64,000 nucleotides of DNA from assembly GCA_951406725.2 (NCBI GenBank), contig OX597818.1, positions 82,026,001 to 82,090,000 of the forward strand. Direction: 5' to 3'. The DNA comes from Octopus vulgaris (Eukaryota). Every line of letters begins with the position of its first letter. Within the stretch, counting starts at the first letter, position 1. A program made the translations under genes and the position numbers. Below are positions 9,484 through 56,511 of this stretch, in pieces. Below the pieces are notes generated by a model, which made no database searches, was not told where the DNA came from, and worked only from the letters and a program-made list of their open reading frames with translations.

Positions 9484-9853
9484 GCATATATATATATATG
9501 TATATGTACGTATCTATATACATGTGTGTGTGTATATATATAGTATATATATATATATATATATATATTTCAACAATTGAGGGTAAAATTAATTAATTAT
9601 TAATCAATTTCACCAAGTGTTCAGTATGCAAAGGGACCATTTAAGGCGAATTCAAATTATTACATTATATAAAAGGGCTTAGTAAAATAAATTACTTTGC
9701 CGCATACTGAACTCATTAGAAATAGCAGCTAAAAACTTTTTTAATGCTATTTCTAATACTTAAAGAAAATCTCTCTCATATATAGTGTTTGCTTAATTCA
9801 ACTCACAAAAGTTTGGGGTTAAGGACATCAAAAAATCAAATGCTAAGGTTATT

Positions 9854-9905
9854 TGAGAACGTACGTTTCAAGATTAGTCAAAACAACACTTCTATCATCA
9901 GCTCA
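9854..9905 (-). ncRNA. Hammerhead ribozyme motif, canonical C3-G8
   Basis: TGAG-CTGATGA-tagaagtgttgttttgactaatctt-GAAA-CGTACG-TT-CTCA. Confidence 0.75.
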
Positions 9906-10137
9906 GAAACTCCTTGGTTTGGATTTGGAAACACTGAAAGTAAGAACATACCCTTTCGAAGATCCGCTCGTAACTAACAGTGCCAACAAACCCAAATAAG
10001 CAAGCGAAGAATTTCTGTTCTCCCCTTTCCACCAGCGTGGGTTAAAATCATCAAACACTATGCTTATTTCGGTAAAATCCGAAGCATTAATTGGAGGGAG
10101 ATTAATTATAATTTCAACAATTGAGGGTAGGAGTTTC

Positions 10138-10189
10138 TGAGCTGATCATAGAAGTGTTGTTTTGACTAATCTTGAAACGTACGTTCTCA
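10138..10189 (+). ncRNA. Hammerhead motif copy with G8C substitution (probably inactive)
   Basis: Same as 9854-9905 except that the core reads CTGATCA. Confidence 0.55.
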
Positions 10190-11614
10190 AATAACATTAG
10201 CATTTGATTTTTTGATGTCCTTACCCCCAAACTTTTGTGAGTTGAATTAAGCAAACACTATATATGAGAGAGATTTTCTTTAAGTATTAGAAATAGCTTT
10301 AAAAAAGTTTTTTAGCTGCTATTTCTAATGAGTTCAGTATGCGGCAAAGTAATTTATTTTACTAAGCCCTTTTATATAATATATATATATATATATATAT
10401 ATATATATATATATATATATGTGTGTGTGTGTGTGTGTGTGTATGTGTATCTATCTCTCTCTCTCTCTCTCTCTCTCTCTATATATATATATATATATAT
10501 CACTATGTGTGTGTACGGATATGTTTATGAATGTGTATGTAATTATGTACATATATGTGCACACAAACACATACACGCGCACACACAGTCACACACATAT
10601 ATGTTATACGTATGTGTAATATGCACGTATACGCGTATATGTGTAATTATATTCTTATGTACGTATAAGTATCCTACAGTTATTGTTGGCCGTATGAGAA
10701 CACAAATTCACACACTTCAACACTTTCGCAAAATTGTTAAGTATAGATATATTTCTTTCTAGAGACGCCCAACCAATCGCCACCGATTAGCAAAAATGGA
10801 TCTATATTAATTTCATTTATAGGTCTGATGGTTATGATATATATATATATATATATTATACTCTTTATATCTTATAAATGAATATTTTTATTCAATATTC
10901 AGTTATCTTATTTATTTTAATTTTCTTCACTTATTTCTGTGTTTACTTTATGTTATTTTCTATGTTTCTTTATTTTACGTTAGTAAACATTGTATTCTAA
11001 TCGATCTGTTAACATTCCCCCTGCACATAATATCAAAATAATAAATCATCATATTTAGTCTGGTGGTATGAACTGATACGTCCGCATGTACAATTTTAAA
11101 GTAAATGCTGTCTGTGATGACGTTATGCTCTAAAAATATAAATGCAAATTTAATGCGCAAATTTGTCATTTAATTTTGGACCACTAATCGAAACGGCTGT
11201 AAGAAGTAAAGATTACCAATTTGTTAATGAAGAATAAATATTAACTTTCAACCCTCCACTTTCTTTCCCCCATAATTACCAGTGGAGCACTGGGATCGAT
11301 GTAATCGACTTACCCAACTTTCAGATATTGCTGGCCTTGTACCAAAATTTCAAACCTATATCATTACATAGAAATATTTGTAGAGGATTTAAGCCTGCGA
11401 AATTCTCATCTCTAGAGCGTATATAGTTCAATGAGGAGCTGGAGAGATGTAAAAGCATGTTGCAGTGAATATAATTAAACTTGACACTGTATCAAATCTG
11501 TATCAAATCTACCAAATATTGCCTGTTACTATATATATATATATATATATATATATATATATATATATATGTATATATGTACGTATTTCACACTGAATCT
11601 CCCTGAACATTACG

Positions 11615-12212
11615 TTAAGGGTGCATGCGGTTGTGAGGTGCTCAGCCACTTGCAAGTTAATTTCACAAGAAAGCTGTGTCAGGTCACTTTTGAATGCTAC
11701 TGGTAACATGTAACCCTGTACAACCTGTTGCATGGTCGGGTCGTCGGCGACTAAACCGACAACTCTTGCTTGGTGAGCAGGGTTTATTGGACACCCTACG
11801 GGATGAAAAACAAAACCCGTCAAAGGGAGGAGGAACTCTTGAGAGTCAACGGCCATCCAATAAATGTCTTAAGACTATATCATGCGCAGGGATACAGAAA
11901 TAATCGGACTGAATACCTGATCACGCGGTTAAACCATTGGGAGTGAAGGACTCCTAGCCTTTGTTAGGGCATTTTTCTAGGAGAAGGTAACTCAGGTAAC
12001 TGGGATAACTCTGAAATAAAACCTGCGGCTCAGTGGTTACCGATGATGTTGATTTGTTCTTCTTTTCGGATTATGGCTACTGTTGCTTAGTGAGTGGGAT
12101 TGACTCAGTGCACAACCTTTCCTCACTTATTTTCTTGCACAGGCATTACATGAAAACAACATTGATTAAGCCTCGTACAATGGCCATACTCAATAACGAG
12201 GGGGCAGCCACT
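11615..12212 (+). repeat. Unclassified interspersed repeat
   Basis: The first ~70 bp resemble the reverse complement of about 59370-59440 (GCTCAG.CACTTG...TTAATTTCAC). It ends at (TA)n. Confidence 0.4.
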
Positions 12213-55277: not shown

Positions 55278-55680
55278 ATAAGGGTAAATAATTTTTTCGA
55301 TGGCTTTTCAGACAACCAACAATTATTTACTGGTAGATTTCGGTATGTAATTATGACCTTTAGCGGTGGGAACTTCTGTGGAGTTCAGTATATATAGTAT
55401 ATAAGTAAAAGGGCAGGCAACAGGTTGCTTTGTCGCATACCGAAAGAATTAGAAATAGCAGTCAGAGACTGTTTATTTCTATTTTCTACAAGTCGGGGCT
55501 CCATATACGACATAACCCTGCAATTCAAATATGCAAAATAGGAGGAGTAAATAAACGAAAACAATGTCTTACCGTTAATGGCGAACATGTTTCTAGATCG
55601 GAGACGAGAAATAGCCTCATGTCTTTCTTCAGCACGATCTTCGTTAGATTTATCAAATACCACCAGCGTGCCCTTTCACT
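55278..55680 (-). mobile_element. Short (TA)n-flanked pLTR-like element with a candidate long-stem-II hammerhead (55576-55635)
   Basis: Minus strand reads GTG-CTGAAGA-aagacatgag..ctcgtct..ta-GAAA-CATG-TT-CGC. Subterminal CGGTATG..ACCTTTAGCGGT motif. Confidence 0.55.
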
Positions 55681-55901
55681 TATATATATAAATATATATA
55701 TATATATATATATATATATATATATATATATATATATATATATATATATATATATATATATATATATATATATATATATATATATATATATATATATATA
55801 TATATATATATATATATATATATATATATATATATATATATATATATATATATATATATATATATACATATATATATATGTATATATATATATATATATA
55901 T
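55681..55901. repeat. (TA)n microsatellite, ~220 bp
   Basis: Direct reading. Confidence 0.97.
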
Positions 55902-56240
55902 AATAGAAATATTAAAATTACTAAGTCTCTTTAAAAGAGAACAGCGGCAGCGTTCCCGGAAAATAATAGTTATCGCCATACTAATATGGCATTCTTATAA
56001 AAATAAGAATAAAGCTGTCCGCTTATTAGCTCCATGAGGCCATCGCCTTAAGTTAGCTATTTGATACACAAACTGTATCCATATAACCTTCGAACAAGGG
56101 AGGTCAGTCGCTCCACACTACTTGACCGGCAGCTACAGACGCGTTTCGGGGTATTGCCCCTTTTCAATGCAGCTAATAAGCTAATAAGCGGACAGCTTTA
56201 TTCTTATTTTTTATAAGAATGCCATATTAGTATGGCGATA
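55902..56240 (-). mobile_element. Short element with ~60 bp inverted arms and a hammerhead
   Basis: 55971-56031 versus 56179-56240 in reverse complement; (TA)n on both sides. Confidence 0.8.
56131..56174 (-). ncRNA. Hammerhead ribozyme, U3-A8 variant, GUC cleavage triplet
   Basis: AGCTGCA-TTGAAAA-GGGGcaataCCCC-GAAA-CGCG-TC-TGTAGCT: 7-bp stem I, 4-bp stem II, palindromic stem III. Confidence 0.85.
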
Positions 56241-56334
56241 TATATATATATATATATATATATATATATATATATATATATATATATATATATATATATA
56301 TATATATATATATATATATATATTTTTTTTTTTT

Positions 56335-56511
56335 TTTCCTCTGTCTTCCCTTCTCTGGATCTTTCCATCTCCTATGGTTCCGACGAAGAGCTGCGCTCGA
56401 AACGTTAAACCCTCCTTCTTTCCTTCTTTCCTGAGCGTCCAATAATACTATATTTGTTCCACGTTCTCGCGTTGTTGTGTTTTTTTGTGCTTTCTTGATT
56501 GGATTAACTTA
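56335..56511 (+). mobile_element. Short hammerhead-bearing element, family A (hammerhead 56376-56411, U4C change)
   Basis: GGTT-CCGACGA-aGAGCtgcGCTC-GAAA-CG-TT-AAACC; homologous to 41866-42072. Confidence 0.75.

What the first reader, a model, noticed from the sequence alone, without database searches (positions are those of the whole stretch)
9567..56511. Diverse non-coding, (TA)n-targeted hammerhead mini-elements: a possible retrozyme-like satellite system of PLEs
At least nine 200-800 bp non-coding units sit inside (TA)n tracts: 9567-10381, 15366-15640, 16690-16970, 16990-17178, 20034-20295, 41866-42072, 44420-44725, 55278-55680, 55902-56240 and 56335-56511. Each carries a full or partial hammerhead, and several have inverted arms like the termini of PLE1 and PLE2. 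Family A occurs three times with similar boundaries, in both orientations. Inference: they are either 5'-truncated pLTR insertions or true non-autonomous elements mobilised by PLE RT/EN through ribozyme-processed RNA. Repeated boundaries would favour the second reading.
Basis: partly seen in the sequence, partly recalled or inferred. Interest (0 to 1): 0.75.

Follow-up and report, generated by a model that had tools for sequence, protein, structure and literature searches.

The report
Penelope ends mixed with hammerhead retrozymes
The small repeats in these TA tracts are of two sorts: cut-off ends of ordinary Penelope-type jumping genes, and protein-free tandem units with a predicted self-cutting RNA that carry the same insertion scars and are therefore likely pasted in by Penelope enzymes, a known kind of genomic parasite whose copying route becomes testable here.

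Summary
The ten units are real and TA-flanked. Each carries a full, variant or broken hammerhead, but they are not one system.

Five (families A ×3, D, E) are 3′ ends of Penelope-like elements (PLEs); longer copies run into RT + GIY-YIG ORFs.

Five (B, C, F, G, H; 362–560 bp) are ORF-less head-to-tail units, i.e. non-LTR retrozymes. None of 49 unselected B insertions continues into an ORF of its own. Their 3′ ends fall at two fixed sites about 60–120 nt apart. Two-armed B insertions use one of each (34 of 36, never the same site twice), as PLE-derived D does (12 of 12). B 5′ ends are random and arms reach 6 units, so the template is likely a circle or uncleaved multimer.

Family A has a sharp 5′ boundary (20 of 20 unselected copies) on an initiator-like motif, likely a transcript start.

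Cleavage, expression and the mobilising PLE are not shown. Retrozymes and their PLE link are published, and this scan found the same footprint on other DNA of this genome.

The parts
9567..10381 (-). Family B retrozyme insertion. Minus arm of about 1.04 units (545-bp unit) ends at site 2; inverted plus arm 10129-10381 ends at site 1. Hammerhead 9858-9901 (-), broken copy 10142-10185 (+).
   Evidence: 1549 exact 30-mer hits genome-wide
14914..15311 (.). Unlisted family I: two-armed insertion of a ~432-bp tandem unit; tail only on the right arm; hammerhead region missing from this copy
15366..15570 (-). Family E: 5'-truncated 3' end of a young 3.35-kb PLE (727-aa RT+EN ORF, Hydra-like by motif). 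Minimal hammerhead-like motif 15482-15505.
15569..15642 (.). Inverted copy of window 14098-14171 at the 5' junction of E (templated filler, inferred)
   Evidence: 98.6% over 74 bp
16690..16970 (-). Family F retrozyme (489-bp unit), truncated inside the hammerhead; 3' half at 16927-16945
16990..17178 (-). Family A sister subfamily, PLE 3' end; degenerate hammerhead 17080-17107
20034..20357 (.). Family D: two-armed 3' end of an RT+GIY-YIG PLE. Tail 20296-20357 on one arm only. G3:C8 hammerheads at 20120-20156 (-) and 20173-20209 (+).
41866..42075 (-). Family A PLE 3' end, 5' end at the family's preferred boundary; hammerhead 41973-41999
44410..45146 (-). Family G retrozyme, 1.5 head-to-tail units (~489-518 bp, TA run inside the unit); hammerhead 44648-44694
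55278..55680 (-). Family H retrozyme (549-bp unit, distant relative of B); hammerhead 55584-55632
55902..56240 (-). Family C retrozyme (362-bp unit). Minus arm ends at site 2; inverted arm 56179-56240 ends at site 1. U3:A8 hammerhead 56138-56167.
56335..56511 (+). Family A PLE 3' end, further 5'-truncated; variant core 56380-56406
1..9483 (-). PLE1 (ORF1, RT, GIY-YIG at 1764-5470) with upstream pLTR and inverted arm 7849-9483. U3:A8 hammerheads at 5492-5524 (-) and 9417-9449 (+). The far end, outside the window, carries a tail of about 60 nt.
45215..49881 (+). PLE2 (ORF1, RT, GIY-YIG) with inverted arm 45215-45426; 33-nt tail on that arm only. U3:A8 hammerheads at 45314-45347 (-) and 49782-49815 (+).

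Best explanation
The units are a mixture: A, D and E are short 3' ends of Penelope-like retrotransposons, while B, C, F, G and H are protein-free head-to-tail hammerhead units (non-LTR retrozymes) that are likely inserted into (TA)n by a Penelope RT/GIY-YIG enzyme in trans. Shown: units, tandem structure, absence of ORFs, TA targeting, two fixed 3' ends, one-of-each use in two-armed insertions, random 5' ends in B. Inferred mechanism: the endonuclease cuts both strands of a TA tract; each 3' end primes reverse transcription at one of two fixed internal sites of one RNA; the RT runs through a circular or uncleaved multimeric template for up to about 6 units; the two cDNAs are then joined head to head. 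The hammerheads, with palindromic stem III, are predicted to work as dimers and to make the monomer or circle; cleavage is untested. Family A's fixed ~215-nt form likely arises when the RT starts at the terminal site of an RNA that begins at an initiator in the pseudo-LTR and copies to that RNA's 5' end.
For: PLE links:
- A: RT and GIY-YIG frames lie ~1.2-1.8 kb upstream on the same strand in 3 of 8 long loci.
- D: 530-aa ORF with Pfam GIY-YIG.
- E: 727-aa ORF between direct repeats 3355 bp apart.

Retrozymes:
- Monomers are 362-560 bp, longest ATG ORF 38-81 aa, no tblastn match to the window's PLE or family A proteins below E 0.3.
- All 49 B insertions with the exact 30-mer in the first 149 Mb of C1: 82 of 85 3' ends at two sites, 83 of 85 on TA, 34 of 36 two-armed insertions site1+site2 and 0 same-site, none continuing into an ORF of its own.
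- Same rule in C 17 of 20, F 11 of 13, H 11 of 12. PLE controls: D 12 of 12, E 3 of 3; PLE1 and PLE2 have a tail at one end only.
- B 5' ends are spread round the unit; 39 of 85 arms are >=1.1 units.
- Median divergence within a B insertion 0.4%, between insertions 3.8%; 29 sample-private variants are shared by all units of an insertion, 26 of them across both arms.

Hammerheads:
- The 3:8 pair covaries between families (C:G in six, U:A 37 of 37 in C, G:C 52 of 54 in D), and core positions are better conserved than the rest in all 8 families.
- Circular monomers fold 5.3-6.8 sd better than 25 shuffles.

Family A boundary:
- Exact 27-mer counts are 3414 (3' end), 1484 (positions 18-44), 64 (1-27) and 160 (just upstream).
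- 20 of 20 unselected copies start at positions 11-19, on TCATTC (initiator consensus recalled).
- A Penelope promoter inside the pLTR is reported in PMC2377424 (passages).
Against: - No autonomous parent or partner was found for B, C, F, G or H among 63 stretches downstream of endonuclease hits in the loci then held; the sample is small.
- The one C-PLE chimera (L352) involves an A-lineage element, yet family A shows a single 3' end (86 of 98 ends) and no clear two-armed copies, unlike C.
- One of 49 B insertions abuts a CR1-like LINE without TA.
- G is unclear (3 of 6 pairs; internal TA run), and F has one same-site pair.
- Several hammerheads are non-canonical (U17 in A, B, D, H; A.A or U.U at the base of stem II in B, E, G, H), and plain folding does not recover the full hammerhead in most. 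PMC11167929 found hammerhead mutants did not affect insertion in vitro, and 8 of 9 retrozyme dimers did not cleave in the 2026 preprint.
- 'Private' variants are private only within 28 sampled insertions.
- A 7-bp hairpin lies at family A's boundary and could stop the RT instead.
Confidence: 0.8

Rival explanations
1. All ten units are 5'-truncated pseudo-LTRs of autonomous PLEs; the tandem units are partial tandems of a parent not yet sampled.
For: True for A, D and E. Partial tandems, inversions and tails are standard PLE features (PMC8557442, passages). Most copies of B, F, G and H were not examined.
Against: Upstream of a B, C, F, G or H unit lies the unit itself, up to 6 times per arm. 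0 of 49 unselected B insertions lead into an own ORF. Of the 31 candidate loci found for C, only L352 joins an ORF on the same strand, and that ORF's other copies have a different 3' end.
Confidence: 0.08
2. The retrozymes are copied from linear multimeric read-through transcripts of existing tandem arrays; the hammerheads are passive remnants and no circle is involved.
For: 5' ends are not enriched at the cleavage site. Many cores are atypical. Unprocessed RNA was the main substrate for the anole PLE in vitro (PMC11167929).
Against: Variants shared by all 4-7 units and both arms of single insertions (L167, L180, L281) point to a monomer bottleneck. The core is conserved above background and the 3:8 pair covaries.
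Confidence: 0.3
3. Family A's ~215-nt form is itself a SINE-like non-autonomous element with its own master copies, not only a by-product of PLE transcripts.
For: Sharp 5' boundary. Short copies differ from long ones at 14 sites with p<0.01, and nine short copies form a clade without long ones (support 0.98).
Against: The other 11 short copies are interspersed with long ones in the same tree. The sampling patterns favour different subfamilies. The alignment is only ~180 bp.
Confidence: 0.35
4. The tandem units are satellites or MITE-like DNA elements amplified at the DNA level, or are moved by a TA-targeting CR1-like LINE.
For: Inverted arms resemble terminal inverted repeats. A CR1-like LINE also sits at TA tracts and abuts one B copy.
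Against: Arms differ in length, end at two different fixed sites and have random inner junctions. The same one-tailed, one-tailless pattern marks the RT+GIY-YIG families D, E, PLE1 and PLE2. Copies are dispersed as short arrays over many contigs.
Confidence: 0.05

Closest known systems
Metazoan non-LTR retrozymes (PMC7229834, passages seen; bioRxiv 10.64898/2026.07.22.740005, parts 1-3 of 5 read: abstract to discussion)
   Same: Non-coding tandem repeats with a type I hammerhead in each unit, low GC, highly self-paired, co-occurring with PLEs; PLE mobilisation and origin already proposed.
   Different: Units here are 362-560 bp with minimal or atypical PLE-type hammerheads. They occur as dispersed TA-targeted insertions with two arms starting at two fixed sites, which I did not see described for retrozymes in those texts. 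No parent pLTR found; circles and cleavage untested.
EN+ Penelope-like elements, Neptune and Hydra clades (PMC8557442, passages; PMC11167929, parts 1-2 of 4; PMC4209133, parts 1-2 of 4)
   Same: RT + GIY-YIG; pLTR hammerheads including the U3-A8 core and the extra base after A9; 5' truncation; inverted arms; a tail at one end from two RT start sites; (TA)n preference.
   Different: Tails here are 33-120 nt against the 30-40 described. Family D has a natural G3:C8 core (PMC11167929 uses it only as an engineered rescue). Family A has one 3' end and a fixed 5' end. Clade labels rest on motifs; no tree was built.
MRC1 and other non-autonomous Chlamys PLEs (PMC8557442, passage)
   Same: Non-autonomous PLE derivatives with pLTRs and head-to-tail insertions.
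   Different: Those share 3' ends with autonomous families and mostly lack canonical hammerheads; here no parent was found.

Membership tests
Non-LTR retrozyme (B, C, F, G, H) | Short head-to-tail tandem units, dispersed | tested here: met
Non-LTR retrozyme (B, C, F, G, H) | No protein-coding capacity, no RT link | tested here: met
   samples of 20-49 loci per family; one chimera in C
Non-LTR retrozyme (B, C, F, G, H) | Type I hammerhead in each unit | tested here: met
   stem II base canonical in C and F, atypical in B, G and H; no Rfam hit
Non-LTR retrozyme (B, C, F, G, H) | Canonical hammerhead with loop 1-loop 2 tertiary contacts, as in PMC7229834 Fig. 1C | tested here: inconclusive
   motifs resemble the minimal, dimer-type PLE hammerheads; loop contacts not modelled
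Non-LTR retrozyme (B, C, F, G, H) | Self-cleavage | not testable with these tools
   needs in vitro transcription
Non-LTR retrozyme (B, C, F, G, H) | Expression as unit-length linear and circular RNA | not testable with these tools
   only contigs were available
EN+ PLE terminus (A, D, E) | Contiguous upstream RT and GIY-YIG ORF on the same strand | tested here: met
   (Pfam GIY-YIG above cut-off for D, below for A, no Pfam hit for E; E rests on YRDD and GIY-YIG-like motifs and tblastn)
EN+ PLE terminus (A, D, E) | Tail at one end and inverted arms | tested here: met
   D 12 of 12, E 3 of 3
EN+ PLE terminus (family A) | Two RT start sites and inverted arms | tested here: not met
   86 of 98 3' ends at one site; 2 outward pairs only, both same-site and 642-1048 bp apart
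EN+ PLE terminus (family A) | Random 5' truncation | tested here: not met
   13 of 29 3'-anchored copies start at 36-143, but copies that reach position 18 stop at 11-19 in 20 of 20
Neptune or Hydra clade | Placement in an RT phylogeny | not tested
   labels from linker and EN motifs only

The most novel reading that the evidence does not exclude
One genome hosts a whole ecology of PLE parasites. At least six retrozyme families are written into TA tracts by twin priming from both cut strands at two fixed sites of a single RNA circle. Family A is a separate kind: a 'strong-stop' mini-element copied from the terminal RT start site to the capped 5' end of a pseudo-LTR transcript, which has become a SINE-like lineage of its own. 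The chimera at L352 would record the RT switching from a retrozyme RNA to its own mRNA.
Probability: 0.3. Interest if true: 0.72.

Novelty: new variant of a known kind. Interest (0 to 1): 0.5.

Why it matters
Which enzyme moves animal retrozymes, and how PLE tails and inverted arms arise, are open questions that have rested mostly on co-occurrence and on one in vitro system. Hundreds to thousands of young copies give a strict footprint (one tailed and one tailless arm) shared by retrozymes and autonomous PLEs. They also name exact RT start sites and a candidate transcript start to test. Natural G3:C8 and U17 hammerheads add to ribozyme core variation. Half of the finding, though, is ordinary truncated PLE ends.

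Tried and rejected
- Rfam scan: no hammerhead family among the matches shown; these are microsatellite artefacts.
- Expression: no RNA holder listed. Laying contigs of four runs of guessed type gave cover and one end-to-start joint, which genomic tandems also give; not used as evidence.
- Parent search for the retrozyme units downstream of endonuclease hits: only nested, TA-bounded insertions or low-complexity matches.
- L431, a candidate B-ORF link: the neighbouring endonuclease element ends at its own TA tract, and the abutting DNA is a CR1-like LINE end in opposite orientation.
- L352 chimera: no inverted C arm beyond the ORF, so template switch and insertion with deletion cannot be told apart (n=1).
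- RNA-editing signature in B: A>G 8 of 29 shared against 3 of 57 unit-specific (Fisher p 0.006), but A>G against T>C is 8:5 (p 0.58), and C, F and H show nothing; not claimed.
- Cleaved linear monomer as template: rejected for B.
- Cap-derived G at family A 5' ends: 2 of 24, no signal.
- MAFFT alignment of hammerheads across families was uninformative.
- Sequence look-ups in earlier findings returned nothing for B and C.
- Literature: 'retrozyme + octopus' and 'hammerhead ribozyme + cephalopod + Penelope' listed no paper describing these families. PMC13282606 (passages) has no word 'ribozyme' in its main text. Its repeat library, Repbase and all supplements were not seen and may hold these families under other names.
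- Rows dropped before counts: overlapping duplicate loci. Best-hit samples (C, F, G, H, E) are biased to copies like the window's; only the B and A pattern samples are unselected.
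Full report
Setting. The window is G000:C5:82026001-82090000 of a 2.8-Gb genome. It is probably a cephalopod; this is inferred from the repeat content and from earlier notes. It holds two RT + GIY-YIG elements, PLE1 and PLE2, and a Helitron.

Observation. All ten units are present beside (TA)n. A scan for type I hammerheads with a Watson-Crick 3:8 pair and a palindromic stem III gives 7 hits, against 0.07 expected from 100 shuffles. 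Targeted patterns place the other motifs, including those of PLE1 and PLE2. Rfam shows no hammerhead family. Across genomic copies the 3:8 pair is C:G in A (95 of 101), B (59 of 60), E (19 of 19), F (21 of 21), G (22 of 22) and H (25 of 25), U:A in C (37 of 37) and G:C in D (52 of 54). The ten core positions are better conserved than the rest in all eight families. This argues for selection on the motif, not for activity. U3-A8 and the extra base after A9 are described in PMC4209133. Position 17 is U in A, B, D and H, and the base of stem II is A.A or U.U in B, E, G and H, so some may be weak.

Class 1: PLE ends. Family A copies that extend upstream run through a CA-rich 3' region into GIY-YIG and RT frames on the same strand (3 of 8 long loci). 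The 16990 copy belongs to a sister subfamily with the same upstream sequence in 3 of 19 loci. D extends into a 530-aa RT + GIY-YIG frame. E is the end of a 3355-bp element with a 727-aa frame and 99% identical direct repeats.

Family A's boundary. Its 5' ends are not simply random. Among 29 copies picked by their 3' end, 13 start at positions 36-143 and 16 at 30 or below. Exact 27-mer counts fall from 3414 at the 3' end to 1484 at positions 18-44, then to 64 and 160 for the next two windows; these counts also depend on how mutable each word is. The first 20 matches on C1 all start at 11-19, mostly 12-13. The sequence there is TCATTC, which fits the initiator consensus TCAKTY (recalled) with its A at 13. 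PMC2377424 (passages) places the Penelope promoter inside the pseudo-LTR, and PMC11167929 shows RT starting inside the RNA. I infer that the RT starts ~215 nt from the RNA's 5' end and copies to it. A 7-bp hairpin at the same place is the rival. Nine short copies form their own clade, and the other 11 mix with long copies.

Class 2: retrozymes. B (545 and 560 bp), C (362), F (489), G (489) and H (549) are head-to-tail units; upstream of each unit lies the unit itself. They have no ATG ORF over 81 codons and no PLE protein match; B resembles H, and F resembles G, over 50-75 bp. B has 1549 exact 30-mer hits. First-look candidates number 31 for C, 2279 for F, 3661 for G and 1942 for H (lower bounds). 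I examined all 49 B insertions listed for the first 149 Mb of C1. Of 85 3' ends, 82 lie at two sites ~98 nt apart and 83 abut TA. Of 36 two-armed insertions, 34 use one site each, 2 have one odd end and none repeats a site. None continues into an ORF of its own. Best-hit samples give 17 of 20 for C, 11 of 13 for F, 11 of 12 for H and 3 of 6 for G. The PLE-derived controls behave alike: D 12 of 12 and E 3 of 3, and PLE1 and PLE2 have a tail on one arm only. A tail at one end is a known PLE trait (PMC8557442, Fig. 2 legend) and matches two RT start sites (PMC11167929). I had seen the two ends before looking at earlier notes; the one-of-each test was prompted by note e1-8672319.

Template. B 5' ends are spread round the unit, with 3 of 85 near the cleavage site against 2.5 expected, and 39 of 85 arms are 1.1 units or longer, up to 6.1. 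A cleaved linear monomer is therefore not the template. Units within an insertion differ by a median 0.4%, against 3.8% between insertions. In 12 of 28 insertions all units share variants seen nowhere else in the sample, 26 of 29 of them across both arms. This fits repeated copying of one monomer, i.e. a circle, but a homogeneous master array is not excluded. Monomers fold strongly as circles (z -5.3 to -6.8).

Partner. No parent pLTR was found. One of 31 C loci (L352) is fused without TA to a young A-lineage PLE cut inside its endonuclease. That family's own 3' end is A-like, not C-like. This may be a template switch or an insertion with deletion. It is one case, and family A lacks the two-armed footprint, so it does not name the mobiliser.

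Comparison. Class 2 meets the sequence-level criteria for non-LTR retrozymes (PMC7229834). The 2026 preprint 10.64898/2026.07.22.740005 already argues that these are non-autonomous PLE derivatives. It differs in having minimal, PLE-type hammerheads and a two-armed, TA-targeted footprint that I did not see in those texts. Searches listed no paper on these families; supplements and repeat libraries were not seen. Earlier notes of this scan report the same footprint for 360- and 485-490-bp units in this genome.

Verdict. New variant of a known kind; interest 0.5.

Noticed in passing
window 14914-15311: A further two-armed, tailed insertion of a ~432-bp tandem unit (family I, 1643 first-look candidates); the unit has a CTGATGA...GAAA motif that is missing from this copy.
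   Followed up: partly
window 12321-13769: GIY-YIG frame (12633-13262, minus) of Hydra-like type between TA tracts, with a long-stem-II hammerhead at 13477-13550 on the opposite strand.
   Followed up: no
window 51573-51601 (-) and 51730-52035 (+): A clean minimal hammerhead near an (AAT)n tract, beside a fragment resembling a restriction-like endonuclease of R4/Dong-type LINEs (label recalled); no match in the loci fetched.
   Followed up: partly
window 15569-15642: 74-bp inverted copy of 14098-14171 at the 5' junction of the E insertion, likely a templated filler from DNA 1.4 kb away.
   Followed up: partly
L352:1620-4000 (G000:C2:55047300-55051300): Family C units fused without TA to a young Neptune-like PLE ORF cut inside its endonuclease; possible RT template switch.
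   Followed up: yes
L385-L392: A young A-sister PLE family (97-99% identical copies) with a ~3-kb CA-rich 3' region and a CCGACGA hammerhead core; the same core occurs at window 56380.
   Followed up: partly
L431:1347-1935: A CR1-like LINE 3' end that also sits at TA tracts (3199 first-look candidates), joined head to head to a B insertion.
   Followed up: partly
window 33552-34186: Palindrome plus 184-bp tandem copies of a common SINE-like repeat.
   Followed up: no
window 21265-26480: Helitron Rep-helicase ORFs (Helitron_like_N, PIF1) with STPR repeats.
   Followed up: no
L109:22-290, L354:2197-2332: Older relatives of family C (88% and 75% identical), so the lineage has amplified more than once.
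   Followed up: no
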